Of a DNA stretch of 64,000 nt, positions 8,523 to 41,311 are shown piece after piece. The number at the start of each line of letters is the position of its first letter. The first letter of the stretch is position 1. The notes under the pieces were generated by a model. It worked only from the letters and a program-made list of their open reading frames with translations, was not told the DNA's origin and did not search any database. Source of the DNA: Escherichia phage DaisyDussoix. The stretch is from the sequence record MZ501058, one strand, 5' to 3'. The position numbers and the translations under genes were made by a program.

Positions 8523-9290
8523 TTATTCAGCAGCCGCAGCTTTTGCATCCAGTTTAGCACGCTTAGCGGCACCATCATAGTCCTTAGCAACCAGACCACG
8601 ACGAGACAGCATAGATTTAACACCGCGCTCAGACTTACCAGTTTTCTCAGCGATCTCAGCAACAGTCATGTTAACCAGATCCAGCCCTTCTAACAGATCT
8701 TCACGAGTTTTAGCACTTGAAGTTTCCTGTACCGGCATAGCGGCGATACGACCTTCACGAAGCAGGCTCAGAGCTTTACCACGGATCTGCTTGATATTAC
8801 GACCGAAGTGAGCAGCGATAGCTTCAATAGTAGCCCCAGCAACAACCTGATTAACAAAATCAGTTTCTTCATCAGGAGTGAAGGAACGAACAGCGGCAGT
8901 TTTTTCAGTTGGTTTAACAGAAGCGGTCATTTCCAGACTCAGGATCTTACCCTGTACCTGTTTAGCACCGAACTGACCACCAGCCACAGCAGCAGCGATT
9001 TCAGCATAGGTATACTGACCAGCATGAGCGTTCAGGAAATCAACCAGTTCAGCTTCCTGCTCAGGAGTCCACGGGGATTTCTGTACTTCGTTAGCTTTCT
9101 GTACTTCAAAACCTTCTTTACGCAGTTTAGAGCCAACAGAGCGAGCAGTAACATCTTTGCCAGTTTCAGCAGCCAGTTCAGTAGCAATAGCAGCTACTTG
9201 TTCTTGAGAGATTACAGCAACACCCAGAGCAGTGGCTTTTGCTTTCAGAGACTCGGTTACACCTTCTACGTTCCAGTTCAGTTTAGACAT
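8523..9290 (-). CDS. Ala-rich DNA-binding-like protein with four HTH-like repeats (possible T5 D5 homolog)
   Basis: 255 aa; repeated xxEIAxxxGKxxxxVxxKLxxxG units; about 28 kDa. Confidence 0.5.
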   Translation of the reverse strand: MSKLNWNVEGVTESLKAKATALGVAVISQEQVAAIATELAAETGKDVTARSVGSKLRKEGFEVQKANEVQKSPWTPEQEAELVDFLNAHAGQYTYAEIAAAVAGGQFGAKQVQGKILSLEMTASVKPTEKTAAVRSFTPDEETDFVNQVVAGATIEAIAAHFGRNIKQIRGKALSLLREGRIAAMPVQETSSAKTREDLLEGLDLVNMTVAEIAEKTGKSERGVKSMLSRRGLVAKDYDGAAKRAKLDAKAAAAE

Positions 9291-10056
9291 TATTATTTTT
9301 CTCCAATAGTTCTTTAATCGACAGGATTTCTATCCCATTCGTTTCGGCTTTCTTATAAGATGAGGAAGAACGTTTTGATTCATCCTCACAGATCAGGTAT
9401 TTGACGTCTTTGGTAACGGATTTCTTAACCGTATATCCTAGACCTTCTAAATAGTTTGTTGCATCCGTTCTATTTGCAAAATCTTGCAAAGATCCGGTAA
9501 TACATACCGCGATTTTATTTGGCTGGGCAACTAAATCATCAGTAACGACGGTTTTAGCTTTCGCACCTTTTGAAAATTTCCACGGTAATTCGATAACATC
9601 CTTGCCTTGTGGGGAATTTAGCCAGGCTTTATAATTTTCTCCAGCCTTGCCGTCAGCCTTCACATCATGGAAGCTAGTGCAATTTTGGGATAATTTCTTT
9701 GCTGCAACCTCTCCGATTAGAGGGATTCCTAAAGAACCGAGAACTGAACCAAAGTCAATGTCTCCGCGAACTTTAGTATTTAATTCGCTAATTAACTTAG
9801 CGGCAACCTTGCTACCCACGGCTCTAACCAAATCTTCTTCGGTTAGGTAAAATAGTTCTGAAATCTTCGTCAGCTCCAGCTTCTCAATAGTTTTTGGGCC
9901 AAAGCCCTTTAACTTCATTTTTGTACAGAAGTTCTCAATTAACTTACTTGATTGCGCTGGACAGTTGGACTTATTCCGACAGAATAATTGTCCGTTGACA
10001 AGATCTAGCTTAGAACCACAAGAGGGACATTGTGTTGGAATTTCGATTTTCATCAA
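9283..10056 (-). CDS. lig: NAD-dependent DNA ligase, C-terminal subunit (Zn finger, HhH, BRCT)
   Basis: CPSCGSKL...CRNKSNC zinc finger, HhH region, BRCT-like C-terminus. Confidence 0.8.
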   Translation of the reverse strand: MMKIEIPTQCPSCGSKLDLVNGQLFCRNKSNCPAQSSKLIENFCTKMKLKGFGPKTIEKLELTKISELFYLTEEDLVRAVGSKVAAKLISELNTKVRGDIDFGSVLGSLGIPLIGEVAAKKLSQNCTSFHDVKADGKAGENYKAWLNSPQGKDVIELPWKFSKGAKAKTVVTDDLVAQPNKIAVCITGSLQDFANRTDATNYLEGLGYTVKKSVTKDVKYLICEDESKRSSSSYKKAETNGIEILSIKELLEKNNNV

Positions 10057-10077
10057 ATTTCTTCCTTATCAATTTAT

Positions 10078-10120
10078 ATAAATATTATAGCAAGTATTTA
10101 AGCATTTAGCAACTACAATT
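10078..10120 (-). promoter_or_regulatory. T5-type promoter inside the ligase split
   Basis: rc AAAATTGTAGTTGCTA-N17-TATAAT. Confidence 0.55.
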
Positions 10121-10171
10121 TTAACTAACTTTGCTTACCCTCGCCATAACTTTCTATCCCTCAACTGAATG

Positions 10172-10212
10172 ATAATAGTATATACCTAAGCGGCGAAAAT
10201 GTCAATAACCAC
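10172..10212 (-). promoter_or_regulatory. consensus-like sigma70 promoter (TTGACA-N17-TATACT) inside the ligase split
   Basis: rc GGTTATTGACATTTTCGCCGCTTAGGTATATACT. Confidence 0.5.
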
Positions 10213-10257
10213 TTTATAATTCCGATATGGTAGATGGGTAGCAAAGGGTTACATATA

Positions 10258-11229
10258 TTAATCGTATACTCGCTCTACTATGCACGGGATTACACCACCA
10301 GCACGAATTACTCGAATCTGGCAACCGATCTCTAGATCAAGAGAGTTAATATAATCAACGTTATTAAGAGTCGCCTTAACAATTGTAGCATCATCAATAA
10401 TTACCGGTTCGAAATAACCAACTGGAGTTACTTTACCAGAAGCCCCTACCTGCCATTCAACTTTAGTAAGAGTTGTAATTTCGCCTTCTTCATCCTCTTT
10501 AATAGCGAATGCTCCACGAGGAAATTTATTAGTCCAGCCTTCACGGAAGAATTTGTTGTTGTCATTAATACGAACAACTTTACCGTCCGTCGGAATCCAT
10601 TTAAAGAAGGAACACACATTAACAACTGTTAAGAAGTTCTCATTCTCTAGCCAAAGCATATCTTTTAAATACGTTTCTGTAATACCTACAGATTCAGCAG
10701 AACACTGGACACCATATGCAACGAAGATTAAACCACCTTCCCCGATACGTTGTACGAAATCATCGCTATCTTTGAGGTTAATAGCACCAGAGGCAAAGTT
10801 ACGTTTATTTTCTACTTCTTTTGTAATTAGAACTTCGCCAGTGATTTGAGTAGGTACTTTTTGGGAAATCTTTTTAGGAATGTTCAGCAATCTTACGTTG
10901 CTTGTGACATCATTCCCTAGAATACCATTACCACGAGTTAGTGCTTGAACAAATTCGCCATTAATATATAACAGAGAAATCGCACAACCATCTAACTTAT
11001 CAGTTTCTACCTGACCTAATGGGTTAAACGGAGGTTTATCTCCACGATTATAATAAACTTTCTGTAAAGAATACATACGATACAGATGTGGAATATCACC
11101 CTTAGGCCCGATCTCTTCTTCTAATGGAAATCTTTTAATCAGACGATCATATTCTTCGTCAGAGATTAAAGACATTCCCTGGTAATATGCCTCTTGACAA
11201 CGTTTAATAAAGTCTTTTACATTATTCAT
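10258..11229 (-). CDS. lig: NAD-dependent DNA ligase, N-terminal adenylation/OB subunit
   Basis: KxDG adenylation motif (ETDKLDGCAISL), TRGNG motif; 323 aa. Confidence 0.8.
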   Translation of the reverse strand: MNNVKDFIKRCQEAYYQGMSLISDEEYDRLIKRFPLEEEIGPKGDIPHLYRMYSLQKVYYNRGDKPPFNPLGQVETDKLDGCAISLLYINGEFVQALTRGNGILGNDVTSNVRLLNIPKKISQKVPTQITGEVLITKEVENKRNFASGAINLKDSDDFVQRIGEGGLIFVAYGVQCSAESVGITETYLKDMLWLENENFLTVVNVCSFFKWIPTDGKVVRINDNNKFFREGWTNKFPRGAFAIKEDEEGEITTLTKVEWQVGASGKVTPVGYFEPVIIDDATIVKATLNNVDYINSLDLEIGCQIRVIRAGGVIPCIVERVYD

Positions 11230-18335: not shown

Positions 18336-18418
18336 TTAAAGAGAATGCTATCATTGGTCTTGAGTACGGATAAAACCGAGCCAAAATGACTCGGTAATCA
18401 GGATTGAGCTAATGAAAA

Positions 18419-18814
18419 TCAATCATCATTTAGGCCTGGGACATAGATTCCAATGCGATTTAATTGACCTTTAGCTTCTTCGAGAATATCTTCGGTGTAC
18501 TCCCAAATATCATCTTCTACTTGCAAAAGATAAGGGGATTCACCAGTTTCGGGGTCACGTGTAATGGCTAAGCCACATGGATGGAATATAGAGAAGTTGA
18601 GGGCAACAATCAAGCCCATGCTGGACAATTCATTCCAGTCAGCTTCCCAACCATCATCTTCATTTTCGTCCACAAAGACACCTACACTAGGGTCTGTTAC
18701 AGAAGTAAACGGAAATGTTACACTAACCTTGTCAACCCCCAACCAACGTGCAAGGAGCCCCTCAGCACGCTCTACCAAACTAGGATCTATCTGACGCCAA
18801 AATACTTGTTCCAT
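18419..18814 (-). CDS. hypothetical protein, paralog A of tandem pair
   Basis: 131 aa; shares W.EL..MGL..ALN...F.P...R..TGE.P...IPGL pattern with 18824..19252. Confidence 0.5.
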   Translation of the reverse strand: MEQVFWRQIDPSLVERAEGLLARWLGVDKVSVTFPFTSVTDPSVGVFVDENEDDGWEADWNELSSMGLIVALNFSIFHPCGLAITRDPETGESPYLLQVEDDIWEYTEDILEEAKGQLNRIGIYVPGLNDD

Positions 18815-18823
18815 TCTGCCTCC

Positions 18824-19252
18824 TTAAGCAGTTAAACCTGGGATCATATACCCGAAACGACGAAGTTTCTGAATCCCCTCATTTACTTCCTCGGGCGAAT
18901 ATGACCAGCCCTCACGTTCATTTACCTGGAAAGCAGGAGCTTCACCAGTGCGATAATTTACAATAAGACGGTGATTTGCAGGCATAAACAGCTTATGATT
19001 CAAGGCAAAAACCAGACCCATTTCATCGAGTTCTTTCCAGTCTACAATCTCTTCTACTCCCTCCCCTAAATCCACGCTAACTCCAATACACGGAGCTTCC
19101 TCTAGCGGGCCTTTAAAGGATAAGAAGATATCGTTATTCTCACACCAAATCTTGAGCAGATTGATGGTTTCATTATACATACCATTAGGGAGAGAGCGCC
19201 AGAAGTTGAGAAGCATAGGATTTACCTCTTTCATGAAAATATTATTGAACAT
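18824..19252 (-). CDS. hypothetical protein, paralog B of tandem pair
   Basis: 142 aa; same conserved pattern as 18419..18814. Confidence 0.5.
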   Translation of the reverse strand: MFNNIFMKEVNPMLLNFWRSLPNGMYNETINLLKIWCENNDIFLSFKGPLEEAPCIGVSVDLGEGVEEIVDWKELDEMGLVFALNHKLFMPANHRLIVNYRTGEAPAFQVNEREGWSYSPEEVNEGIQKLRRFGYMIPGLTA

Positions 19253-19254: not shown

Positions 19255-19794
19255 TTATACCTTAAGTTTCTGAAGAGCCTTACACATTTCAAGATCTGGA
19301 CTAAACTCCAGCATATAGCTGATAGCGTTTAAATCTTGAAGGTTTATTCCAGTCCTGCCGTTTACAATAACAGTAGGAAATTGATACATCATAGCACCAG
19401 CATCATCTAGGACACACCAATGCTTGAGCTTATATTTTTCGACAAAACGTAAAACAGAATTACCCCGAGATAAACCACCTCCAGTAAAATCTGTTGTACC
19501 AAGAAAACGATCGATCAAACCGAGTCCGGTCATAATCTGAACGTTCTCCATTTCATTTCGTACAGAAAACCATGAAGATACCCCAACAATCATTATTGGG
19601 GATGGCTTAAGAAAGTTCTGAAAAGCCTGGAGTAATGGCTTGTAAACCCAATCACCACCAAAGAATAGCTTCTCACTATCTGGAGCATGATGGTGAGAGA
19701 TGCTCGAATTGAGCACCCCATCAATATCCAGGAAAATCACAGGAGTATTACTTATTTCCACCAGTAGCATCCCACGTCCAGACTTTAACTTCAT
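19255..19794 (-). CDS. HAD-superfamily hydrolase-like protein
   Basis: motif I VIFLDIDGVLN. Confidence 0.5.
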   Translation of the reverse strand: MKLKSGRGMLLVEISNTPVIFLDIDGVLNSSISHHHAPDSEKLFFGGDWVYKPLLQAFQNFLKPSPIMIVGVSSWFSVRNEMENVQIMTGLGLIDRFLGTTDFTGGGLSRGNSVLRFVEKYKLKHWCVLDDAGAMMYQFPTVIVNGRTGINLQDLNAISYMLEFSPDLEMCKALQKLKV

Positions 19795-20029
19795 CAGTAA
19801 AAGGAACTGGAACCTTCAATTCACCTTTACCCCACATAACAGATAGGAACAGAGAATAAATGGTAATCATACCGATTAGGTTGACAAACCATACTAGACC
19901 TTTCCAGATACCCTTAAAAATCTTCTTCACCATATTCTCCCTCCTTAATAAGGAACTCTTTCCACTCTGCTGTATCCTCATAGATAACGCAGAAATCATC
20001 ACTCTTCCATGAGAAGTCATCAGTAGCAA
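19748..20029 (-). CDS. small membrane protein (likely start 19933, about 61 aa)
   Basis: AAGGAGGG RBS before internal ATG; hydrophobic segment LVWFVNLIGMITIYSLFL. Confidence 0.35.
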   Translation of the reverse strand: MLLMTSHGRVMISALSMRIQQSGKSSLLRRENMVKKIFKGIWKGLVWFVNLIGMITIYSLFLSVMWGKGELKVPVPFTDEVKVWTWDATGGNK

Positions 20030-20237
20030 ATTCGAAACGGTAGCACCAACTACCGTCTGGCCATACTAAAAGATCACACATGCTTTTCTGGGACATAAAT
20101 ATTTCCCTCCATAAAAGCTTCAACTTGATCAATAAAGTGTTTATTACCAAAAACTTCGGCAGCTCCAGCACGCCATACAGTAACACCACGTTTCTCATAC
20201 TCAAGCTGTTCGTCATAACGAACTTGTGGGTTAACAA
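19914..20237 (-). CDS. hypothetical small protein (likely start 20096, about 60 aa)
   Basis: GGAGGG RBS before internal ATG. Confidence 0.3.
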   Translation of the reverse strand: MLTHKFVMTNSLSMRNVVLLYGVLELPKFLVINTLLIKLKLLWREIFMSQKSMCDLLVWPDGSWCYRFEFATDDFSWKSDDFCVIYEDTAEWKEFLIKEGEYGEEDF

Positions 20238-20925
20238 CCATCATCTTAGTTCCACGACATACAGCAGGAAATAGCTCCCAGTTGAAGTCGATTACTTGGT
20301 TGCTACAACCTACTACAATAACCATATCATTGCTAGTAAGTGTATCAAACAGGTTAATCTGACCCATATACCACGGAGCCGTCTCACCAAAGAATGTTAC
20401 GTTTGGTTTTACCCATTCGTAATCCTCAGGGGCAATAGCAGTATACCCAACATCTTCGATGATTTGGTTGCGACCCTGACGATAGATCACCTCTTTCAAG
20501 TACCCGTGAGCGTGAATGATTTCATCACGAGGGATACCAGCACGTTCCAGAAGGTCATCAACGTTAGTAGTGAAGTTCTTCACGCTATCCGCACCATAAC
20601 GCTGGAACCATTCTGCAATTCGCAGATGGGCAATGTTAGGCTCAACAGTCTGTAATTCCTGACGACGCATGTTGTAGAACTCATGAGTCTTGAGATACAG
20701 ATCGTTACCATCTTTATCAATGCCAGGGAAACGAGCACTGAAGTAGTTAGGATCATCTTCACCACAGAAGCGACGGAAGCCAGCTTCAAAGTTAGGCAAG
20801 CTACATACTTCCTCTAGATCGTACTCATCCCACAAGGATTTCCCACTAGCAGTATCAGTACGGAAAGCACGAACACCACTATCTACACTCAAACCTGCAC
20901 CACTAACAACGATTAGTCTACGCAT
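20074..20925 (-). CDS. Sir2-like (sirtuin family) NAD-binding protein
   Basis: GAGLSVDSGVRAFR, TTNVDDLLERAG, FFGE, VVGCS sirtuin signatures. Confidence 0.7.
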   Translation of the reverse strand: MRRLIVVSGAGLSVDSGVRAFRTDTASGKSLWDEYDLEEVCSLPNFEAGFRRFCGEDDPNYFSARFPGIDKDGNDLYLKTHEFYNMRRQELQTVEPNIAHLRIAEWFQRYGADSVKNFTTNVDDLLERAGIPRDEIIHAHGYLKEVIYRQGRNQIIEDVGYTAIAPEDYEWVKPNVTFFGETAPWYMGQINLFDTLTSNDMVIVVGCSNQVIDFNWELFPAVCRGTKMMVVNPQVRYDEQLEYEKRGVTVWRAGAAEVFGNKHFIDQVEAFMEGNIYVPEKHV

Positions 20926-21203
20926 TATACGATTCCTTGCTTGAATCCTTCGATGATATTTTGGAGCAGAATTGCTTCTTCTGGGCGAACCTTCTCTTGC
21001 TTAATAAGCATATCCAAACCAGCAATACAGGTAGCTACTCCAGCATTATACCCAGCATTCCACTGCTCCATAAGCATATTTTCTAAATTACTTTTTAGAT
21101 TCTGATTCAAGAAGTCCATAAAGTTTTTCCTCCAATTCCATAATACGATTTTCGTAAGAAGCACGCAGCTTCTCGATGGACAAAGCACGAACTGTAACTT
21201 CAT
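20925..21203 (-). CDS. hypothetical small protein (likely start 21119)
   Basis: GGAGGA RBS before internal ATG. Confidence 0.4.
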   Translation of the reverse strand: MKLQFVLCPSRSCVLLTKIVLWNWRKNFMDFLNQNLKSNLENMLMEQWNAGYNAGVATCIAGLDMLIKQEKVRPEEAILLQNIIEGFKQGIV

Positions 21204-21291
21204 CTGAATTGATCGCTAGCTGAGCTAGATCTTCTGTTTCCATACGTCCGTTGTAAATTAAGCGATATTTAAGATGTTTTACGTTTTTCAT
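21088..21291 (-). CDS. hypothetical small protein
   Basis: AAGGAA RBS; 67 aa. Confidence 0.4.
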   Translation of the reverse strand: MKNVKHLKYRLIYNGRMETEDLAQLAINSDEVTVRALSIEKLRASYENRIMELEEKLYGLLESESKK

Positions 21292-21300: not shown

Positions 21301-21582
21301 TTAGTTCTGTACTGTAAATTCATTCTTATCACAGTGAGCATAATAATACCCATACATACGATAAATTTTCACAGCCTTAGTAGACCCCTTCGATTCTTCA
21401 TAATCAATCCAGAGCCACTTGTCTTTACCTACATAATGTACCCGAAACTTCTTAACTTTCTTATCATTCCATGTTGCAACAACACGACGATAATCAAATC
21501 CGCCCAACCAATCTAGAGCCTTACGTTCTTCACTAGGCTCTCCAAGATGGGAAACATCTACTTTCGGAAGCAATTCGCTCAT
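21301..21582 (-). CDS. hypothetical protein
   Basis: ORF track 93 aa; downstream of promoter at 21606-21649. Confidence 0.45.
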   Translation of the reverse strand: MSELLPKVDVSHLGEPSEERKALDWLGGFDYRRVVATWNDKKVKKFRVHYVGKDKWLWIDYEESKGSTKAVKIYRMYGYYYAHCDKNEFTVQN

Positions 21583-21605: not shown

Positions 21606-21649
21606 AATCAATTATACATAAGTTTTAGCTCGAAAGCAAATAAAATAAA
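21606..21649 (-). promoter_or_regulatory. T5-type sigma70 promoter
   Basis: rc ATTTTATTTGCTT-N17-TGTATAATT. Confidence 0.55.
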
Positions 21650-21676
21650 AGCCAGGTCGACTAGCAACCTGGCTGA
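21640..21676 (-). terminator. intrinsic terminator after nrdD
   Basis: minus strand AGCCAGGU-UGCUAGUCG-ACCUGGCU + UUUAUUUUAUUUG. Confidence 0.6.
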
Positions 21677-23579: not shown

Positions 23580-23618
23580 CTACTATTATAACTCATTCGA
23601 AGGCGGATGTCAACAATA
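23580..23618 (-). promoter_or_regulatory. consensus sigma70 promoter for nrdD (TTGACA-N17-TATAAT)
   Basis: rc TTGTTGACATCCGCCTTCGAATGAGTTATAATAG. Confidence 0.6.
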
Positions 23619-23653
23619 TTTTACTATAACATTCTGTAAATTGATCTGAGTCA

Positions 23654-23695
23654 AAAAATTTTATTTGCCAACCTCTATTAAAAATAGTATAATCA
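23654..23695 (+). promoter_or_regulatory. T5-type sigma70 promoter (-35 TTGCCA)
   Basis: AAAAAATTTTATTTGCCA-N17-TATAAT. Confidence 0.55.
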
Positions 23696-28608: not shown

Positions 28609-29138
28609 TTACAGCAATATATGCAGTTGGGCCGAGTGGGGAGTTCGGCCTCCGAGGTAAGCTTCCCTGGGGTTCTTTTAAAGAAGAACTAGATGCTTTT
28701 TATTCACAATTAGATGTACTAAATCCCGATAATATTATTATGGGGGCAGGTACTTATTTAGCTCTTCCATATGCCGTTAGGGAACGTATGATTGGAGCTT
28801 CTGACCTATTTATTCGTGCTGATCGTCCACTGCCAGACGATATTACACATGATATTTACACTCCCATATCAATGATAGGTGATACATTACCTACTTTTCT
28901 AAAAGATCAGCAAACAGTAGTTCTAGGTGGAGCTAATCTTCTTCTAGAAATGTACCAACATGGGCATATAGAGAGTGCTTTTGTATCTACAATCTTTAGC
29001 GAACAGAAGCTAGAGGCAGATATATATCTAGATAGTATGATACTAGATTATAACTATGAATCCACTCGATTAGTCTATGCAGTTGGCGCAAACAGTGATA
29101 ACAGCCTGCGATTTGTACAGGAATTGGTTACTTATTAA
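28605..29138 (+). CDS. frd: dihydrofolate reductase
   Basis: N-terminal MITAIYAVGPSGEFGLRGKLPW DHFR signature; overlaps nrdB stop and thyA start. Confidence 0.75.
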   Translation: MITAIYAVGPSGEFGLRGKLPWGSFKEELDAFYSQLDVLNPDNIIMGAGTYLALPYAVRERMIGASDLFIRADRPLPDDITHDIYTPISMIGDTLPTFLKDQQTVVLGGANLLLEMYQHGHIESAFVSTIFSEQKLEADIYLDSMILDYNYESTRLVYAVGANSDNSLRFVQELVTY

Positions 29139-29977
29139 TGCAACAATACTTAAAAATTTTGACAGATGTAATTTTACTAGGTGAACCCCGTAATGACCGT
29201 ACAGGAACAGGCACAGTTTCAATTTTTGATTCCTATGCTAAGTTCGACCTACGTGAAGGATTCCCGGCTGTAACTACTAAACGCCTGGCCTGGAAATCAG
29301 TAGTAGGAGAACTTTTGTGGTTCTTGTCTGGTTCCACAAATCTTCATGATCTACGTGTATTCACATTTGGTCGTGACGAAGGACAGTGGACCATCTGGAC
29401 TCCAAATTATGAAGACCAAGCTATAAGTATGGGGTATGATAAGGGTAATCTAGGACCAGTATATGGTAAACAGTGGCGTAACTTTGGTGGGCGAGATCAG
29501 ATCCTAGAACTTATTGAAGGAATCAAGAATAATCCTCATGGCCGCAGACATCTAGTTTCTGCGTGGAACGTAGCTGAACTTGATAAAATGGCATTACCAC
29601 CCTGTCATTATGGTTTTCAGTGTTACGTAAGTAATGATGGATACCTAGATCTTAAATGGACACAACGCTCTGTGGATTGTTTCCTCGGTTTACCTTTCAA
29701 TATTGCTAGTTATGCTTTATTAACGCATATATTAGCAAAACTGACAGGATTAAAACCTCGTTATCTTATCTTTAGTGGTGGTGATACTCATATCTATAAT
29801 GACCACATGGAACAGGTAGAAGAACAGGTAAAACGCAAGCCACGCCCTCTGCCAACTCTAGTAATGCCAGAGTTTGTAGATCTTTACGATTTATTAGAAA
29901 ATAATACAGCAGCTTGGTCGTTCCATTTAGAGGGGTACGATCCTCATCCAGCTCTTAAAGCTAAAATGTCCTCTTAA
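29138..29977 (+). CDS. thyA: thymidylate synthase
   Basis: PPCHYGFQCYV active-site motif. Confidence 0.9.
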   Translation: MQQYLKILTDVILLGEPRNDRTGTGTVSIFDSYAKFDLREGFPAVTTKRLAWKSVVGELLWFLSGSTNLHDLRVFTFGRDEGQWTIWTPNYEDQAISMGYDKGNLGPVYGKQWRNFGGRDQILELIEGIKNNPHGRRHLVSAWNVAELDKMALPPCHYGFQCYVSNDGYLDLKWTQRSVDCFLGLPFNIASYALLTHILAKLTGLKPRYLIFSGGDTHIYNDHMEQVEEQVKRKPRPLPTLVMPEFVDLYDLLENNTAAWSFHLEGYDPHPALKAKMSS

Positions 29978-29982
29978 CTTAA

Positions 29983-30008
29983 ATAGCCCTTCGGGGCTAT
30001 TATATTTA
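29983..30008 (+). terminator. intrinsic terminator (UUCG tetraloop)
   Basis: UAGCCC-UUCG-GGGCUA + UUAUAUUU. Confidence 0.55.
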
Positions 30009-30050
30009 AAATTTCATTTGCTTATTTAGTGAAATTTTAAATATAATATA
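30008..30050 (+). promoter_or_regulatory. T5-type sigma70 promoter
   Basis: AAAATTTCATTTGCTT-N18-TATAAT. Confidence 0.5.
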
Positions 30051-30078
30051 CTAAATCAACCAATATGGACAAACAAGA

Positions 30079-30465
30079 ATGAGCAAAGATATAGAATTAG
30101 AACACGCCCTGCATAATTATACCTCTTACTTGGAGGGTAATGAAGTAAAAGAATTAACTAAGGAACAAATCCTACTAATTCTAGATTCTCTAGTTTTAAA
30201 GTTTAAAAAACTAGAGGAATACTACTCCGTAGGTAATGGGGATGAAAGAGTAGAACTATCTCTAAGTCTTCTAGAAGACATGGGGTGGGATGAAGATGAC
30301 CAAGTAGGGTACTTGGGGATTTCTGTAGAAATCTTAGAAAACACAGAACATGAAGATATTTTAGAAGTGAAAAGTAGAACAGCTATTCGTTATGGTACTT
30401 ATGGAAGTGGAATAACTGGATTAAAAGCGCTTCTTAGTATGGATCTAGGGTGGTTGGATGAGTAA
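30079..30465 (+). CDS. hypothetical acidic protein
   Basis: ORF track 128 aa. Confidence 0.45.
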   Translation: MSKDIELEHALHNYTSYLEGNEVKELTKEQILLILDSLVLKFKKLEEYYSVGNGDERVELSLSLLEDMGWDEDDQVGYLGISVEILENTEHEDILEVKSRTAIRYGTYGSGITGLKALLSMDLGWLDE

Positions 30466-31003
30466 ACAACCGACACTAGAGAGATTAAAAGAACTTCTAA
30501 ATTATGATCCTGATACCGGAATATTTACTAATAAAATAAGTAGAGGTAAGGGAGGTAAAGCCGGAGCAGTTGCTGGTTATTTAAGAAAAGATGGTTATAT
30601 AACTATAAAAATAGATAAAGTAGATTATCTAGCCCATAGACTGGCATTCCTGTATATGACAGGGAGTATTCCTGACTTAGTAGATCATATAAATCGTATA
30701 CGGTCAGATAATAGATGGAAAAATTTAAGAGAATCTACTAGTCAAATTAATAATAGAAACTGCACTGCCTCTAGCAAATCAGGGTACTTAGGGGTACATT
30801 GGAATAAGCAACTACAAAAGTGGCAAGTACAGATAATAAACTGTGAGGGTAAGAATATTTATGGTGGAATATTCGAATATCTAGACTTAGAGAACGCCGT
30901 ATTAAAAGCAAATATCTTGAGACACGAGTTACATGGTAAAGATGCTGTAGAAGAAATATTTTATAATAACTATTATCCCACATTAGAGGAACTTAATAGA
31001 TGA
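30458..31003 (+). CDS. HNH homing endonuclease (AP2-domain type)
   Basis: 181 aa; YLAHRLAFLYMTG...VDHINRIRSDNRWKNL. Confidence 0.8.
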   Translation: MSKQPTLERLKELLNYDPDTGIFTNKISRGKGGKAGAVAGYLRKDGYITIKIDKVDYLAHRLAFLYMTGSIPDLVDHINRIRSDNRWKNLRESTSQINNRNCTASSKSGYLGVHWNKQLQKWQVQIINCEGKNIYGGIFEYLDLENAVLKANILRHELHGKDAVEEIFYNNYYPTLEELNR

Positions 31004-31476
31004 GTACATTTCATATATACACAGATGGTGCTTGTAAGTCTAATCCAGGTCCAGGTGCTTGGGGTTTTATTGTCTATGATGATAACAACGATCGTTTAGG
31101 TTCTAAATCTGGTTATAATCCTAAAACCACAAATAACGAGATGGAACTCACAGCTATTGTAGAAGCTCTACGTTGGTCCGTTAAAAAAGATAATAGACCA
31201 ATTGCTATCTATACTGACTCTGCTTATTGCAAAAATGGCATGGAAAGTTGGATGTTTTCTTGGCAAAGGAAAGGCTGGAAGAAAGCAGATGGTGAAGTTC
31301 CTCTTAATCTAGAACTTTGGCAGGAAGCATTTAAATTAACACAGCAGTATATCAACTTTCATAATACTAACCCTACCTTTATTAAGGTTAAAGGACATTC
31401 TGGTATTAGTGGTAATGAAGCTGTAGATGCACTATGTAATACAGTTATTACTGAGCAAGAACTTGCTGAGATGTGA
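31000..31476 (+). CDS. rnh: ribonuclease H
   Basis: YTDGACKSNPGPGAWG, ELTAIVEAL, YTDSAY, VKGHSGISGNEAVDALC motifs. Confidence 0.8.
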   Translation: MSTFHIYTDGACKSNPGPGAWGFIVYDDNNDRLGSKSGYNPKTTNNEMELTAIVEALRWSVKKDNRPIAIYTDSAYCKNGMESWMFSWQRKGWKKADGEVPLNLELWQEAFKLTQQYINFHNTNPTFIKVKGHSGISGNEAVDALCNTVITEQELAEM

Positions 31477-37454: not shown

Positions 37455-37529
37455 CGGGGTGTAGTCTAAGGGATAGGCAGGAGTCTTCTAAATTCCTTTA
37501 TGCAGGTTCGAATCCTGTCACCTCGGCCA
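37455..37529 (+). tRNA. tRNA-Arg (anticodon UCU)
   Basis: manual cloverleaf: acceptor CGGGGUG/CACCUCG, anticodon loop CUUCUAA, T-loop UUCGAAU, CCA encoded. Confidence 0.6.
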
Positions 37530-37555
37530 ATTTTATTAACTGCTAGGAAAATAAA

Positions 37556-37756
37556 GTGAAAACACGATATATAGTAAAAGTAGTAGGTGAACATTCACAA
37601 GTAAATACCACCGATGTTACAGCGCTAGCATTTGAAGTAGTCTCCGGTATAGTCATATTTCATAACGGAGATATCAAAGCTCCTGAATTTGCTGTGGATG
37701 CTAGCCTGTTTATTTCTGCAACTAAAGTAACTGTAGTAGCTAACTCTTCTAAATAA
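37556..37756 (+). CDS. hypothetical beta-rich small protein (possible NfeD-like partner of SPFH protein)
   Basis: GTG start with AGGAAA RBS; 66 aa immediately upstream of SPFH gene. Confidence 0.4.
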   Translation: MKTRYIVKVVGEHSQVNTTDVTALAFEVVSGIVIFHNGDIKAPEFAVDASLFISATKVTVVANSSK

Positions 37757-37767
37757 TAAGGAAATAT

Positions 37768-38712
37768 ATGTTTACTAAAAATATGAAAGAACTGACTTCT
37801 GAGCAAAAAGTAATTCGCACTATTAAACGTTGGGGTATTGGTGCTGTAGTTGGTTTAGCAGGTTTAATCCTAGCTTTTAATTCATATACTATTGTTTCTG
37901 ATGGTACGGTTAAAACCCAAACATTTCTTGGTAAAGTAGATCCTAATCCAGTATTACCTGGTTTCCATCTTGTAAACCCATTTGCATCTTTCGATACTTT
38001 TAGTACAAAAGATATTGCTGTAAAATTAGATAAACTTCAGGTTCCTAGCCAGGATAAGTTTAAATCCACTGTTGACCTGACTGTTATGTTGCAGTTTGAC
38101 GGTTCTAAGGCACCGATCAACCGTATTAATGCAGGTACTCAGGATCAGGCTCTAGATAAGTACGTAACTGAAAAATTACTGTCTACTATTCGTGAGTTTG
38201 GTAAGTCTGTACCTAAAGCACAAGATTTATTTGATGCTAAAATTCAGGCTCAATTGCAAACTGCAATTCAACAGGAAGTTGAAGAGTATGCACGCCCTTA
38301 TGGTTACACAGTTAAGCAAGTGTTCCTTCAGGATATTACGTTGCCACCGGTAATCATGGAACAGGTACAAAATACCAAAGTTCGTGAAGAACAGGTTAAT
38401 GCTGCGAAAGCTGAGTTGGCTCGTGTTGAACAAGAAGCACAGCAGAAGGTTAAACAAGCAGAAGCAGATCGTGAAGCTCGTAACAACCAAGCTATTGCAA
38501 ACGAACGTGATGCAGATGCTAAACTGTACGCAGCTAAGAAAGAAGCCGAAGCTAACGCCGCGCTGCAACGTACTATTACTCCTGAGATGATTCGCTGGAA
38601 ACAACTAGAAGTTGAAATGATTCGTGCTCAGAAATATCAAGGTGGTGTACCGCAAACAGTGGTTGGCACTGGTTATGATGGCCAGATGATTATGGATATG
38701 CGTAACAAGTAA
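37768..38712 (+). CDS. SPFH/band-7 (stomatin/prohibitin-like) membrane protein
   Basis: N-terminal TM (WGIGAVVGLAGLILAF), band-7 core, long Ala/Glu/Gln coiled-coil tail. Confidence 0.6.
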   Translation: MFTKNMKELTSEQKVIRTIKRWGIGAVVGLAGLILAFNSYTIVSDGTVKTQTFLGKVDPNPVLPGFHLVNPFASFDTFSTKDIAVKLDKLQVPSQDKFKSTVDLTVMLQFDGSKAPINRINAGTQDQALDKYVTEKLLSTIREFGKSVPKAQDLFDAKIQAQLQTAIQQEVEEYARPYGYTVKQVFLQDITLPPVIMEQVQNTKVREEQVNAAKAELARVEQEAQQKVKQAEADREARNNQAIANERDADAKLYAAKKEAEANAALQRTITPEMIRWKQLEVEMIRAQKYQGGVPQTVVGTGYDGQMIMDMRNK

Positions 38713-38735
38713 TATCCGCATGTAATCTCTGAAGT

Positions 38736-38770
38736 AAACCCTGTGTTCCCTGGAGAGCGCAGGGTTTTTC
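38736..38770 (+). terminator. intrinsic terminator
   Basis: AACCCUG...CAGGGUU + UUUUCUGU. Confidence 0.55.
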
Positions 38771-39327
38771 TGTATAACGTATTTATAAAATCAACTAGGA
38801 GATCAAATATGAGTGTTGATGAGTTGACCCGGCACCTTCTATCTAGAGGGTTTGATACAGATAAATATCATTGCTGGTTAAGTCCGGAAGGATGGCTAAC
38901 AGTCCCGTTGTATGATTTCTCTGGGATGTTGAGGGGCTATCAGACGTATAATCCTTCTGCTCCAAAAGGTCATGGTAAGTGTCCCTTTGAGGCTAAATAT
39001 TTTACCTACTCTACTACCCAGTGTGTATGGGGACTAGAAACTCTCAATGGAGATGAAAAAGTAGTATTGATTGCTGAATCTGTATTTAAGGCAGTTGCAT
39101 TACATAATGCTGGTTATCCAGCCCTAGCAATGTTGGGTTCTACCCCAGGAAAAGCGTTATTAAAGCAACTGAAATTACTACCTTTTAAATTGGTAGCTGT
39201 CGGGGATAATGATCCTGCGGGTGAAAAATTTGCTAGAAAATTAAACGGCTTTGTTTCTCCTGTAGATGTGGATGAGATGTCTACCGAAAACTTGAAAAAT
39301 TTTCTTGCTATGAAGCTAAATTTCTAA
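38743..39327 (+). CDS. TOPRIM-domain protein (likely start ATG about 38809)
   Basis: VVLIAESVFKAVAL ... LVAVGDNDPAGEKFARKL TOPRIM-like E/DxD pattern. Confidence 0.45.
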   Translation: MFPGERRVFLYNVFIKSTRRSNMSVDELTRHLLSRGFDTDKYHCWLSPEGWLTVPLYDFSGMLRGYQTYNPSAPKGHGKCPFEAKYFTYSTTQCVWGLETLNGDEKVVLIAESVFKAVALHNAGYPALAMLGSTPGKALLKQLKLLPFKLVAVGDNDPAGEKFARKLNGFVSPVDVDEMSTENLKNFLAMKLNF

Positions 39328-39338
39328 TATAATATATC
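39295..39338 (+). promoter_or_regulatory. T5-type sigma70 promoter for tRNA transcription
   Basis: TTTCTTGCTA-N17-TATAAT inside 3' end of preceding ORF. Confidence 0.55.
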
Positions 39339-39348
39339 TTATAAATTC

Positions 39349-39437
39349 GGAAGAATAGCATAACGGTATTGCAGCAGATTGCTAATCTGTCGGTTTGAAA
39401 TATAGCCTTGTGGGTTCGATTCCCACTTCTTCCGCCA
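39349..39437 (+). tRNA. tRNA-Ser (anticodon GCU), type II
   Basis: acceptor GGAAGAA/UUCUUCC, anticodon loop UUGCUAA, long variable arm, T-loop UUCGAUU, CCA. Confidence 0.65.
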
Positions 39438-39444
39438 AATTCTG

Positions 39445-39521
39445 GTTCTCAAGCTCATATGGTATGAGCACCCAGCTCATAACTGGAAGGTACGTAGGTT
39501 CGAATCCTCGGGGAGCCACCA
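39445..39521 (+). tRNA. tRNA with CAU anticodon (Met or Ile-lysidine)
   Basis: acceptor GGUUCUC/GGGAGCC, anticodon loop CUCAUAA; T-stem imperfect. Confidence 0.5.
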
Positions 39522-39540
39522 ACTTAATTAGGGGATTACA

Positions 39541-39730
39541 AGTGGAATTATACATAGTTTATGTTGTGTTTATTCAAGATAGAGAATACCCTGATGAATA
39601 TAAAAAAGGATATAGGTTAGCCAGAGCTACCTCTGAAGCCCAAGCTATGGATAAAGTGGCAGATTATATGATTACGGTAGAAAACGTACACTATATCGAC
39701 TACCTTGAGGCCTCAAAAGTAATTGACTAA
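39541..39730 (+). CDS. hypothetical small protein (GTG start after tRNA)
   Basis: AGGGGA RBS; 5' part of track ORF 39395..39730 overlaps tRNAs and is rejected. Confidence 0.3.
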
Positions 39731-39739
39731 GGAGACTAT

Positions 39740-39925
39740 ATGTCCAAGTTTCAAGAACTCAAGCAAGAGCTAGAAGAATGTGCCTGCCCTGAGTGTAGGG
39801 GAATTGGTGAAAGTTCTGATGCAGAAGCAGGAGATACTTTTTGCAATATCTGGGTTTGCCCAAATTGCAATGGTACAGGTATTAATCCTAACTGTGGTAT
39901 TTCTCTAGATATTGAAAGAGGGTAA
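39740..39925 (+). CDS. Cys-rich zinc-ribbon-like mini-protein
   Basis: CACPECRG ... CPNCNGTG. Confidence 0.4.
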   Translation: MSKFQELKQELEECACPECRGIGESSDAEAGDTFCNIWVCPNCNGTGINPNCGISLDIERG

Positions 39926-40026
39926 TATCTGTGAAACTAAAAGATTATTATATTGGTTGGTTTGTGGGACTAGTAGTAGGATTTTCACTAGGCTATAATA
40001 TGTATCAACTAATAAACTGATTACAC

Positions 40027-40103
40027 GGGGGTGTAATCGAATTGGCATAGGTACTGGACTTAAAATTCAGGTTTTGTGGGTTCGAATCCCACCACCCCTA
40101 CCA
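40027..40103 (+). tRNA. tRNA, apparent anticodon UAA (Leu-like) with short variable arm (atypical)
   Basis: acceptor GGGGGUG/CACCCCU, anticodon loop CUUAAAA, T-loop UUCGAAU, CCA; D-arm unclear. Confidence 0.45.
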
Positions 40104-40278
40104 AATTAAGGAAATAAGATGTATAGACCTCCACCTCCGCCAACACGTCGTTCTAGAGAAGTTATCCTCATGGAATTGACTAAAAACTTCAAGGCAACTC
40201 TTGAAGATAGAGATTTAGGCACGGATGAAGACATTGATTTTATTTGTAGACTATTAAAGATGAAACTGGAGAAACAAC

Positions 40279-40485
40279 ATGGCTAATCCTGAAATTACCG
40301 CACAACGTTTCATGCTTAAAGGCATGATTGCTGAAGCAGGTATGACTCAAGAGGTTGCAGACTTTCATAAGCAAATTCTTGATATTATAACCCTAGCTAA
40401 AGAGACTGGAGAAAAAGAGCACGCAGCAGCAATTATGGCTATATCTCTTATTAGTCTAGACTTGGCTGAAGAATCTGGAGTTTAG
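40279..40485 (+). CDS. hypothetical small protein
   Basis: ORF track 68 aa. Confidence 0.4.
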   Translation: MANPEITAQRFMLKGMIAEAGMTQEVADFHKQILDIITLAKETGEKEHAAAIMAISLISLDLAEESGV

Positions 40486-40505
40486 CTCCTCCAAATAGAA
40501 TTTTT

Positions 40506-40550
40506 AAAAATGTACTTGCCTTTTGCTTTAAATTTCTGATATAATAGTTA
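40506..40550 (+). promoter_or_regulatory. T5-type sigma70 promoter
   Basis: AAAAATGTACTTGCCT-N18-TATAAT. Confidence 0.5.
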
Positions 40551-40575
40551 TATAAATTGATGAAGGAGTTAACTA

Positions 40576-40851: not shown

Positions 40852-40877
40852 CTAATACAGCACTGAGCAAGTTCTTT

Positions 40878-40920
40878 AAAATTTGACTTGCTCAGTGCCT
40901 TAAAACTTGGTATAATAGTT
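40878..40920 (+). promoter_or_regulatory. T5-type sigma70 promoter for tRNA operon
   Basis: TTGACTTGCTC-N17-TATAAT. Confidence 0.5.
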
Positions 40921-40932
40921 ATCTAATTTGGA

Positions 40933-41059: not shown

Positions 41060-41066
41060 AATTTAA

Positions 41067-41143: not shown

Positions 41144-41152
41144 ATTTCTGCA

Positions 41153-41228: not shown

Positions 41229-41234
41229 AAATTT

Positions 41235-41309: not shown

Positions 41310-41311
41310 AA

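What the first reader, a model, noticed from the sequence alone, without database searches (positions are those of the whole stretch)
20074..20925. Phage-encoded Sir2-family protein next to a HAD-like hydrolase and small membrane ORFs
The 283-aa product carries the Rossmann-fold sirtuin signatures (GAGLSVDSGVRAFR, TTNVDDLLERAG, FFGE, VVGCS). In phages, Sir2-like proteins could act as deacylases, ADP-ribosyltransferases or NAD-consuming enzymes. Its neighbourhood (HAD hydrolase 19255..19794, two about 60-aa ORFs, tandem paralogs 18419..19252) has no assigned function and sits between replication and nucleotide-metabolism genes, consistent with a host-takeover or counter-defence module.
Basis: partly seen in the sequence, partly recalled or inferred. 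Interest (0 to 1): 0.5.

Follow-up and report, generated by a model that had tools for sequence, protein, structure and literature searches.

The report
Zinc-less phage sirtuin beside HAD phosphatase
The ORF is a real, catalytically intact but zinc-less CobB-like sirtuin of a T5-like phage, already annotated in hundreds of phage genomes and already predicted in print, with its neighbouring HAD phosphatase, to repair cut RNA using NAD+, although nobody has tested what it does.

Summary
The ORF at 20074-20925 lies on the minus strand and encodes a 283-aa Sir2-family protein (Pfam SIR2 E=1.3e-21, PHROG 2162 E=2.5e-107). An AlphaFold model (pLDDT 87.8) is closest to E. coli CobB. The NAD motifs, the catalytic His (H140), N121/D123 and the class-III Y84-x-x-R87 anion motif are conserved across 60 homologues. 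The Zn(Cys)4 module is absent from the whole clade.

The window is a T5-like Epseptimavirus. The gene is the orthologue of T5.102, is 100% identical to an annotated Salmonella phage protein, and occurs in 977 phage records.

Its neighbour is a capless HAD_SAK_2 phosphatase with intact catalytic motifs. The Sir2+HAD pairing in T5-like phages was published by Iyer et al. 2022, who predicted a KptA/Tpt1-like, NAD-dependent RNA-end repair system. I reproduced their three gene contexts:
- HAD in 28 of 31 T5-like loci.
- Rnl1, cREC and a kinase in rV5/Mydo-like phages.
- 2H and Nudix-cREC in a jumbo phage.

I found no experiment on the clade. T5 knock-down data call Sir2 and HAD dispensable on a laboratory host.

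My best reading is NAD-dependent healing of phosphorylated RNA ends (about 0.4). The main rival is a CobB-like protein deacylase (about 0.3). The finding is already known and of modest interest.

The parts
20074..20925 (-). Sir2-family protein, 283 aa (orthologue of T5.102 and CPT_Stitch109). It is a zinc-less, CobB-like sirtuin with G9-A-G11, S16, F21-R22, Y84-x-x-R87-R88, T119-T-N121-V-D123, H138-A-H140-G141, F178-F-G-E181, G206-C-S208 and N232.
   Evidence: Its start codon overlaps the stop of the upstream ORF by 1 nt, and its 3' end overlaps the next ORF by 23 nt.
19255..19794 (-). Stand-alone HAD phosphatase of family HAD_SAK_2 (orthologue of T5.105). The catalytic motifs are D23-x-D25, S73/S74, R110 and D130-D131. 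An alternative start at 19770 is used in the Stitch annotation.
19914..20096 (-). 60-aa acidic small ORF (pI 4.05) with no membrane segment.
   Evidence: Present in many but not all T5-like loci.
19748..19933 (-). 61-aa small ORF with one hydrophobic, membrane-like segment (aa 14-32).
   Evidence: PHROG 11166.
18824..19252 (-). DUF7415 protein, 142 aa, acidic (orthologue of T5.106).
   Evidence: Pfam PF24187 E=9e-37; PHROG 2502.
18419..18814 (-). DUF7415 paralogue, 131 aa, acidic (orthologue of T5.107).
   Evidence: Pfam PF24187 E=1.9e-27; 31% identical to the previous ORF. The T5.107 orthologue is the only member of the cassette scored 'Fit' in T5 CRISPRi-ART.
20925..21119 (-). 64-aa small ORF of unknown function, directly upstream of Sir2 (start as in Stitch CPT_Stitch108).
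   Evidence: PHROG 5827.
21088..21291 (-). 67-aa small ORF of unknown function (orthologue of T5.101).
   Evidence: PHROG 5236.
21301..21582 (-). 93-aa ORF of unknown function, the first gene of the cassette.
   Evidence: PHROG 7953 E=8.8e-66.
21611..21639 (-). Promoter-like site TTGCTT-17 nt-TATAAT, followed by a GAGAGGAG ribosome-binding site before the ATG at 21582.
   Evidence: Read from the sequence. It falls below the scan's -35 threshold, so its role as a promoter is inferred only.
21650..21674 (-). Terminator-like hairpin (10-bp stem, 6 GC pairs, T-run) right after nrdD. It separates nrdD from the Sir2 cassette.
18375..18395 (-). Weak hairpin ACCGAG...CTCGGT followed by TTTTA after the last cassette gene. 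It is a possible 3' boundary; a further promoter-like site for the origin-binding gene follows.
   Evidence: Read from the sequence; not reported by the scan.

Best explanation
Shown: the gene encodes a genuine member of a phage-restricted clade of CobB-like sirtuins. The clade keeps every NAD+-binding and catalytic residue but has lost the zinc-binding cysteines. In T5-like phages the gene sits in a nine-gene early-region cassette with a catalytically intact, capless HAD_SAK_2 phosphatase. Inferred (this is the published prediction of Iyer et al. 2022, which I adopt as most likely): the sirtuin cleaves NAD+ and transfers ADP-ribose onto a phosphate group at a damaged RNA end, as KptA/Tpt1 does with a 2'-phosphate. 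That would release nicotinamide and an ADP-ribose (cyclic) phosphate and leave a clean hydroxyl. The HAD phosphatase would either remove the remaining terminal phosphate from the RNA or dephosphorylate the ADP-ribose phosphate by-product. Together they would heal tRNA or mRNA ends made by host metal-independent nucleases (anticodon nucleases, toxin RNases), so that a ligase can reseal them. That ligase would be the host's in T5-like phages and the phage's own Rnl1 in rV5-like phages. The conserved Tyr84-x-x-Arg87 pocket binds a carboxylate in SIRT5 and CobB, and would here hold the phosphate; this last point is my inference only.
For: Identity: Pfam SIR2 and PHROG 2162; AF2 model closest to CobB, target-normalised TM-score 0.83; H140, N121, Y84 and R88 invariant and D123 and R87 nearly so in 60 homologues. 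Context: orthologues at 35-55% identity sit next to RNA-end-processing genes in several independent arrangements. (a) HAD_SAK_2 lies within 460 nt downstream in 28 of 31 T5-like IMG/VR loci. In Pantoea phage AAS21 the order is inverted (HAD, a 118-aa ORF, then SIR2) but the linkage is kept. (b) Rnl1 RNA ligase, cREC, a P-loop kinase or Pnk, and a phosphoesterase occur in 12 rV5/Mydo-like loci. (c) A 2H enzyme and Nudix-cREC flank it in Serratia phage BF. (d) An Rnl1 ligase lies two genes upstream in a 607-kb phage contig. All the partners are phosphoesterases. None is a Macro domain, the usual partner for O-acyl-ADP-ribose or protein ADP-ribosylation. The HAD model resembles small or capless HADs that act on macromolecules (MDP-1, SCP1, UBLCP1). 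Another HAD_SAK_2 gene lies 3 kb from an RNA ligase. The phage carries 23 tRNA genes, so tRNA integrity matters to it. T5.102 and T5.105 are dispensable on a laboratory host, as expected for a conditional repair or counter-defence function. The prediction is published (PMC9503650).
Against: All evidence for the mechanism is guilt by association; no enzyme of this clade has been assayed. The clade is strongly acidic (pI 4.6-5.7), unlike what one expects of a protein that grips RNA. The hydrophobic FFGE acyl-lysine tunnel motif and the desuccinylase-type Y-x-x-R motif are intact, which fits an ordinary class-III deacylase equally well. T5-like phages have no RNA ligase or polynucleotide kinase in the window. 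Three T5-like loci keep Sir2 but lack HAD (L015, L016, L024). Sixteen loci, including the Stephanstirmvirinae-type loci, show no recognisable RNA-repair neighbour, apart from the Rnl1 found later in L067. A HAD that removes 2'- or 3'-phosphates directly would make a Tpt1-like step redundant. Some contexts point instead to NAD salvage: NadV and NMNAT beside Sir2 in BF, and Prs and NadV beside the HAD in ChuuTotoro.
Confidence: 0.4

Rival explanations
1. It is an ordinary NAD+-dependent protein lysine deacylase (deacetylase or desuccinylase like CobB and SIRT5). On this reading the phage makes it early to reset acylation of host or phage proteins, and the HAD neighbour is functionally unrelated or acts on another substrate.
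For: The closest sequence and fold relatives are CobB, Sir2-Af1 and SIRT5. All deacylase catalytic residues are invariant, including the FFGE tunnel motif and the class-III Tyr-x-x-Arg pair. These align with CobB Y92/R95; the numbering was derived from the I131C and Y92A variants listed, and the alignment is. The acidic pI suits a protein substrate better than RNA. Sir2 persists without HAD in some T5-like lineages and without any RNA-repair neighbour in the Stephanstirmvirinae-type loci.
Against: The protein scores far below every NCBIfam CobB equivalog cut-off (72-88 bits against 243-320). The whole clade lacks the zinc site that, to my knowledge, every characterised deacylase sirtuin has. 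The repeated, independently arranged linkage to phosphoesterases, RNA ligase and cREC is unexplained, and no Macro-type O-acyl-ADP-ribose hydrolase is nearby.
Confidence: 0.3
2. It acts on small molecules of the NAD+/ADP-ribose economy. It might make or destroy an ADP-ribose-derived nucleotide, or trim NAD+ derivatives used in host immune signalling. The HAD would dephosphorylate a phospho-ADP-ribose or a nucleotide, and the products would feed NAD+ salvage.
For: In Serratia phage BF the Sir2 gene lies between NMNAT and NadV (NAD salvage) on one side and Nudix-cREC on the other, and the adjacent 2H protein hits Pfam Acb1 (anti-CBASS) at E=3.6e-15. In Serratia phage ChuuTotoro a HAD_SAK_2 gene is immediately upstream of PRPP synthetase and NadV. 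Sister phages such as Stitch carry the NAD-rebuilding NARP3 pair (PMC13464706). A phage phosphatase that converts ADPR-1''-phosphate into ADPR is a proven counter-defence, though it is a Macro domain and not a HAD.
Against: This window lacks NARP3 yet keeps Sir2 and HAD. Capless HADs usually act on macromolecules. No sirtuin is known to act on a free small-molecule acceptor apart from the debated CobB/CobT-like activity. There is no PADLOC match.
Confidence: 0.15
3. It is a host-takeover ADP-ribosyltransferase or NADase. It would modify host proteins or DNA (as the T4 Alt and Mod enzymes or SirTM sirtuins do), or it would drain host NAD+.
For: Sirtuins can ADP-ribosylate. The gene lies in the early region of the phage genome, behind a promoter-like site with a perfect -10 TATAAT.
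Against: No Macro partner is present, and there is no similarity to defence NADase Sir2 models or, among the top 50 fold matches, to ThsA-, DSR2- or HerA-type Sir2. The phage's own split DNA ligase needs NAD+, so draining NAD+ would be self-harming. Knock-down has no fitness cost in T5.
Confidence: 0.1

Closest known systems
Phage 'RNA-repair' sirtuin clade of Iyer, Burroughs, Anantharaman & Aravind 2022 (Viruses 14:1977), neighbourhood type 3 (Escherichia phage SP15: sirtuin + Swiss-army-knife HAD)
   Same: Same clade (PHROG 2162). Same cassette in the same slot between nrdD and the origin-binding gene. Same HAD_SAK_2 partner. No Macro neighbour. SP15 is a Tequintavirus, and Tequintavirus orthologues are about 51% identical.
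   Different: This Epseptimavirus version has an insertion of about 27 aa (roughly aa 48-75) in the helical module, and two small ORFs lie between Sir2 and HAD. In four of the T5-like IMG/VR loci the two genes overlap by 19 nt, and in Tequintavirus phiP4 they likewise overlap. The published function is a prediction only.
E. coli CobB / human SIRT5 (class III sirtuin protein deacylases)
   Same: Best sequence and structure match (26-27% identity, target-normalised TM-score 0.83). Shares GAGxS, (T/S)xNxD, HG and FGE, and the Tyr-x-x-Arg acidic-acyl pocket.
   Different: No zinc-binding cysteines; CobB has C155, C174, C176 and C177 in the aligned stretch. Scores lie far below the CobB equivalog cut-offs. 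The motif after GxS is family-specific: N-Q-V-I-N-F-N-W replaces x-x-V-Y-P-A-A. The clade is acidic and restricted to phages.
KptA/Tpt1 RNA 2'-phosphotransferase
   Same: Proposed analogous chemistry: the NAD+ ribosyl C1'' is attacked by a phosphate oxygen, releasing nicotinamide. Comparable gene partners occur (RNA ligase, 2H, kinase-phosphatase).
   Different: Unrelated fold (ADP-ribosyltransferase superfamily versus Rossmann sirtuin). No sequence similarity. The activity has not been demonstrated for any sirtuin.
Defence-associated Sir2 NADases (ThsA, DSR1/2, Sir2-HerA, SPARSA)
   Same: Sir2 fold without a zinc module; NAD+ is the substrate.
   Different: No PADLOC model matches. There are no sensor or partner domains. 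The closest structures are deacylases, not these NADases. It is encoded by a lytic phage that depends on NAD+.
T4 Pnkp 3'-phosphatase domain and other capless HAD phosphatases (for the neighbour)
   Same: DxD acyl-phosphatase motifs, small size and no large cap; predicted to act on polynucleotide ends.

Membership tests
Sir2/sirtuin superfamily (Pfam PF02146) | Profile match above the curated threshold | tested here: met
   77.7 bits against a gathering score of 24, E=1.3e-21.
Sir2/sirtuin superfamily (Pfam PF02146) | Rossmann NAD+-binding motifs (GAGxS, T/S-x-N-x-D, GxS, distal Asn) | tested here: met
   G9-A-G11-L-S13, T120-N121-V-D123, G206-C-S208 and N232 are invariant or at least 90% conserved.
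Sir2/sirtuin superfamily (Pfam PF02146) | Catalytic histidine in the HG motif | tested here: met
   H140-G141 is invariant in 60 of 60 sequences and aligns with CobB H147.
Sir2/sirtuin superfamily (Pfam PF02146) | Sirtuin fold (large Rossmann domain plus small domain) | tested here: met
   AF2 pLDDT 87.8; Foldseek against CobB E=1.3e-15, target-normalised TM-score 0.83.
Canonical protein-deacylase sirtuins (CobB, SIRT1-7, Sir2Tm) | Structural Zn(Cys)4 module in the small domain | tested here: not met
   No Cys between H140 and E181 in the window protein or in 44 of 60 homologues; at most 2 in the others.
Canonical protein-deacylase sirtuins (CobB, SIRT1-7, Sir2Tm) | NCBIfam CobB/deacylase equivalog score cut-off | tested here: not met
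   Best 87.7 bits against cut-off 243; 71.9 against 318; 71.3 against 320.
Canonical protein-deacylase sirtuins (CobB, SIRT1-7, Sir2Tm) | Class III Tyr-x-x-Arg acidic-acyl pocket | tested here: met
   Y84-N-M-R87 aligns with CobB Y92/R95.
Canonical protein-deacylase sirtuins (CobB, SIRT1-7, Sir2Tm) | NAD+-dependent removal of acyl groups from lysine | not testable with these tools
   Needs an enzyme assay.
Phage RNA-repair sirtuin clade (Iyer et al. 2022) | Orthology with the sirtuins of SP15-type, rV5/Mydo-type and Serratia BF-type phages | tested here: met
   Full-length or near-full-length tblastn matches (51% Tequintavirus and 45-55% rV5/Mydovirus over 96-100% of the query; 35% Serratia BF over 83%). 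All share PHROG 2162-type motifs in alignment A1.
Phage RNA-repair sirtuin clade (Iyer et al. 2022) | Conserved linkage to RNA-end-processing genes (HAD_SAK, Rnl1, cREC, 2H, kinase, Nudix) and no Macro partner | tested here: met
   HAD in 28 of 31 T5-like loci; Rnl1, cREC or a kinase in 12 loci; BF has 2H and Nudix-cREC; no Macro hit among the neighbours scanned. Sixteen further loci show no such neighbour apart from an Rnl1 in L067, and three T5-like loci lack HAD.
Phage RNA-repair sirtuin clade (Iyer et al. 2022) | Tpt1-like ADP-ribosyl transfer to an RNA phosphate | not testable with these tools
   Never assayed. No experimental paper was found.
Defence-type Sir2 NADases (ThsA, DSR, Sir2-HerA, SPARSA) | Match to a defence-system Sir2 profile, or presence of partner or sensor domains | tested here: not met
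   No PADLOC hit at E<=0.1. Single-domain protein. None of these appear among the top 50 fold matches.
SirTM-type ADP-ribosylating sirtuins | Operon partner with a Macro domain | tested here: not met
   None of the eight cassette proteins has a Macro hit.
HAD_SAK_2 phosphatases (neighbour gene) | Pfam PF18143 match and the four HAD catalytic motifs | tested here: met

The most novel reading that the evidence does not exclude
The zinc-less phage sirtuin really does perform Tpt1-like chemistry. It would use NAD+ to ADP-ribosylate and thereby remove (or cap) a terminal phosphate on RNA, with the class-III Tyr-x-x-Arg pocket re-used as the phosphate site. That would be the first sirtuin shown to act on a nucleic-acid phosphate. 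With the capless HAD it would form a minimal two-enzyme RNA-healing module that lets T5-like phages survive host anticodon nucleases.
Probability: 0.35. Interest if true: 0.7.

Novelty: already known. Interest (0 to 1): 0.3.

Why it matters
As a discovery it adds little. The gene is annotated as Sir2-like in hundreds of T5-like genomes, and the Sir2+HAD pairing and its proposed role are in print.

It matters as an experimental target. T5 is a tractable model phage, and the cassette is small. The prediction, a sirtuin acting on RNA phosphates, would extend sirtuin chemistry beyond acyl-lysine and would add an RNA-repair layer to the known tRNA-replacement strategy of T5-like phages.

- The clade-wide loss of the zinc site.
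- The retained Tyr-x-x-Arg pocket.
- The acidic charge of the whole clade.

These features sharpen the choice between the RNA-repair and deacylase readings and suggest which mutants to make.

Tried and rejected
- **Defence-type NADase:** rejected. There is no PADLOC hit and no ThsA-, DSR2- or HerA-type Sir2 among the top fold matches. The phage also needs NAD+ for its own ligase.
- **Linkage to the NARP3 NAD-rebuilding pair (PnuC+NadR):** checked because sister phage Stitch has it. It is absent from this window at the syntenic site and by tblastn, so Sir2 and HAD do not depend on it.
- **Recent capture of host cobB:** rejected. Identity is only 26-27%, and the clade-specific motifs are almost absent from 185,579 bacterial species genomes (3 distant hits).
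- **Sir2-HAD fusion proteins as stronger evidence of coupling:** none found among 38 HAD homologues; all are single-domain.
- **Sequence-level link of the HAD to T4 Pnkp or any solved phosphatase:** none by phmmer or by profile search. Only generic HAD fold matches were found.
- **Experimental literature on T5 Sir2 or phage sirtuins:** several searches found only genome announcements, the Iyer et al. prediction and a knock-down table.
- **Pfam scans of Sir2 neighbours in the Stephanstirmvirinae-type loci and other unclassified loci:** uninformative. They returned only a C5 DNA methylase, an HNH endonuclease and an ATP-dependent DNA ligase.
- **DUF7415:** no literature.
Full report
**Observation**

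The ORF at 20074-20925 exists but lies on the minus strand. It starts with ATG and encodes 283 aa; the plus-strand reading is full of stops.
- It matches Pfam SIR2 at 77.7 bits against a gathering score of 24 (E=1.3e-21).
- It matches PHROG 2162 'Sir2' at E=2.5e-107.
- Its best solved relative is E. coli CobB (1s5p, E=1.7e-16).

The neighbours are as described:
- a HAD at 19255-19794 (Pfam HAD_SAK_2, E=8e-18);
- two DUF7415 paralogues at 18419-19252 (31% identical, E=8e-21);
- two small ORFs of 60 and 61 aa between Sir2 and HAD.

Only the 61-aa ORF has a membrane-like segment. The 60-aa ORF is acidic and soluble-looking.

**Origin of the window**

The region is 99% identical to Salmonella phages ZBSTP12, 3-29, fuchur and Stitch. 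These are T5-like siphoviruses of the Demerecviridae, genus Epseptimavirus. The gene is annotated 'Sir2-like protein' or 'NAD-dependent deacetylase' in most of these records. A 100% identical product is found in phage vB_SenS_SB10. In T5 itself the cassette is T5.102 (Sir2), T5.103 and T5.104 (small ORFs), T5.105 (HAD), and T5.106 and T5.107 (DUF7415).

A tblastn search finds the family in 977 phage records:
- T5-like phages: Epseptimavirus at 95% identity or more, Tequintavirus at about 51%.
- rV5-like, Mydovirus and Phapecoctavirus phages at 45-60%.
- Jumbo phages at about 35%.

Clade-specific peptide patterns give only three distant hits in 185,579 bacterial species genomes. The clade is therefore essentially confined to phages.

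**Anatomy of the protein**

In a 60-sequence alignment these residues are invariant: G9, A10, G11, S16, F21, R22, Y84, R88, N121, H140, G141, K173, P174, F179, E181 and N232. R87, T119, T120, D123 and D124 are at least 90% conserved.

I derived CobB numbering from the engineered variants that appear in the PDB hits. The I131C variant shows up as TQN[I to C]D, and the Y92A variant is named. On that numbering:
- H140 corresponds to the CobB catalytic His147.
- N121 and D123 fall in the TQNID motif.
- Y84-x-x-R87 corresponds to CobB Y92 and R95.

From established knowledge of class III sirtuins (SIRT5 Y102/R105), this last pair binds the distal carboxylate of succinyl- or malonyl-lysine.

The AlphaFold2 model is confident (pLDDT 87.8, pTM 0.87). 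Foldseek places it next to CobB (E=1.3e-15, target-normalised TM-score 0.83), then Sir2-Af1 and SIRT5. No ThsA-, DSR2- or HerA-type Sir2 appears in the top 50.

The zinc module is gone. CobB has Cys155, Cys174, Cys176 and Cys177 in the segment between the HG and FGE motifs. The phage protein has none there, and neither do 44 of 60 homologues; the rest have at most two. The model still shows the three small-domain strands.

The protein scores far below every NCBIfam CobB equivalog cut-off and matches no PADLOC defence model. The whole clade is acidic, with pI 4.6-5.7. The Epseptimavirus version carries an insertion of about 27 residues (roughly aa 48-75) that Tequintavirus and rV5-like versions lack.

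**Transcription unit**

All genes from nrdD to the second DUF7415 gene are on the minus strand.
- A perfect sigma-70 consensus promoter precedes nrdD (23613-23585).
- A strong terminator-like hairpin follows nrdD (21674-21650).
- Between that hairpin and the first cassette gene there is TTGCTT-17-TATAAT (21639-21611) and a good ribosome-binding site.
- The nine cassette genes (21582 to 18419) are tightly packed and partly overlapping. The stop of the upstream ORF overlaps the Sir2 start by 1 nt.
- A weak hairpin follows the last gene (18395-18375).

That the cassette is a separate early transcription unit is inferred, not shown.

**The neighbouring HAD**

The four HAD motifs are invariant or nearly so in 29 homologues: D23-x-D25, S73/S74, R110 and D130-D131. 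The model is very confident (pLDDT 93.8). It has no sequence relatives among solved structures. Its best fold matches are small or capless HADs:
- the CTD phosphatase SCP1;
- UBLCP1.

From established knowledge of the HAD superfamily, capless members tend to act on macromolecular substrates.

**What is already published**

1. Jumbo phages such as Serratia BF, with 2H, Nudix, cREC and PIN.
2. rV5 and Mydo phages, with a T4-like tRNA ligase, cREC, a nucleotide kinase, MazG and a calcineurin-like phosphoesterase.
3. [quoted passage not shown]

They propose that the sirtuin acts like KptA and removes 2'-phosphates from RNA cut by metal-independent nucleases. SP15 is a Tequintavirus, so type 3 is exactly this cassette. 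I found no experimental work on the clade.

In a T5 CRISPRi-ART screen, T5.102 to T5.106 are 'Not Fit' and only T5.107 is 'Fit' (PMC11879866 supplement). The same table also calls the origin-binding gene T5.108 'Not Fit', so the screen is not very sensitive for T5.

**Independent check of the contexts**

I examined annotated records and 59 IMG/VR loci using my own ORF calls and seed BLAST.
- **T5-like loci (31).** HAD_SAK_2 lies downstream of Sir2 in 28 of them, with a gap of -19 to 460 nt. Three loci lack it, with no remnant detectable (L015, L016, L024).
- **Pantoea phage AAS21.** The order is inverted (HAD, a 118-aa ORF, then SIR2) but the pair stays together. This is better evidence of coupling than frozen synteny.
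- **rV5/Mydo-like loci (12).** These show phosphoesterase, Rnl1, cREC, a P-loop kinase, a small ORF, SIR2, then DNA ligase and MazG.
- **Serratia BF.** The order is NMNAT, NadV, 2H, SIR2, then a Nudix-cREC fusion.
- **A 607-kb phage contig.** An Rnl1 ligase lies two genes upstream of Sir2.
- **Sixteen remaining loci.** These include the Stephanstirmvirinae-type loci. They show no recognisable partner, apart from the Rnl1 in the 607-kb contig (L067).

Two observations point towards NAD metabolism instead. A HAD_SAK_2 gene lies directly before PRPP synthetase and NadV in Serratia phage ChuuTotoro. The BF 2H protein matches Pfam Acb1.

**NAD+ economy of this phage**

The window encodes an NAD-dependent DNA ligase split into two ORFs (10258-11229 and 9283-10056). 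A wasteful NADase would therefore hurt the phage. Sister phage Stitch carries the PnuC+NadR pair, now called NARP3 (PMC13464706). This window lacks it: window 38775-40264 replaces about 5 kb of Stitch, and tblastn finds nothing. Sir2 and HAD thus occur with or without NARP3.

**Interpretation**

That the gene encodes a catalytically competent, NAD+-cleaving sirtuin is close to certain. What it acts on is not shown.

I favour the published RNA-end-healing model (about 0.4). Across several unrelated gene arrangements the constant partners are phosphoesterases and RNA ligases, never a Macro domain. That pattern suggests phosphate-ester rather than acyl-ester chemistry. In addition, the HAD looks like a macromolecule-directed phosphatase, and the phage carries 23 tRNA genes.

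The strongest rival is an ordinary CobB-like deacylase (about 0.3). It is supported by the intact FFGE and Tyr-x-x-Arg acyl-pocket motifs, by the acidic charge, and by lineages where Sir2 stands alone. A small-molecule NAD/ADPR role (about 0.15) and host-takeover ADP-ribosylation or NADase activity (about 0.1) remain possible.

**Verdict**

Both the feature and its context are already known, at the level of annotation and published prediction. Interest is modest (0.3) and lies mainly in the fact that a clear, untested biochemical prediction sits in a tractable model phage.

Noticed in passing
window 19255-19794 (-): PHROG 18062 is labelled 'Sir2 (NAD-dependent deacetylase)' but matches only the C-terminal half (aa 88-179) of the HAD_SAK_2 phosphatase. 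RefSeq records of Stitch, 3-29, fuchur, LVR16A and others therefore list two 'Sir2' genes. This looks like a propagated annotation error.
   Followed up: partly
window 18419-19252 (-): The two acidic DUF7415 paralogues are called 'tail tube protein' in ZBSTP12 and phiP4, without support. They stay in place even in T5-like phages that lost the HAD. The T5.107 orthologue is the only gene of the cassette scored 'Fit' in T5 CRISPRi-ART. Their function is unknown and there is no literature on them.
   Followed up: partly
window 38775-40264, compared with Stitch 36.6-41.7 kb: The NARP3 NAD+-rebuilding pair (PnuC-like transporter and NadR-like enzyme), present in sister phage Stitch, is absent here. 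About 1.5 kb containing a Toprim-like 194-aa ORF and a tRNA-Ser gene takes its place.
   Followed up: partly
window 9283-11229 (-): The NAD-dependent DNA ligase is split into two ORFs separated by about 200 nt. One carries the adenylation and OB domains (10258-11229) and the other the HhH and BRCT domains (9283-10056). Stitch has the same split.
   Followed up: partly
window 37455-48811 (+): There are 23 tRNA genes interspersed with ORFs of about 190 aa. At least one of these (43539-44114) is a NUMOD4/HNH homing endonuclease. Another HNH endonuclease lies at 30458-31003, inside a low-GC stretch (28694-31009) that has no megablast match to Stitch.
   Followed up: partly
window 23585-23693: Divergent promoters lie in the nrdD/phoH intergenic region: a perfect TTGACA-17-TATAAT on the minus strand (23613-23585) and TTGCCA-17-TATAAT on the plus strand (23665-23693).
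   Followed up: no
L007 (Serratia phage BF) 3281-3727: The 2H protein next to the jumbo-phage Sir2 matches Pfam 'Anti-CBASS protein Acb1' (E=3.6e-15) better than the generic 2'-5' RNA ligase family. NadV and an NMNAT-like gene lie just upstream. This raises an alternative reading of that neighbourhood as anti-signalling or NAD salvage.
   Followed up: no
L010 (Serratia phage ChuuTotoro) 6001-9217: A HAD_SAK_2 homologue (41% identical) lies immediately upstream of PRPP synthetase and a NadV/NAPRTase gene, with no Sir2 nearby. This hints that the phosphatase family may also serve NAD or ribose-phosphate metabolism.
   Followed up: no
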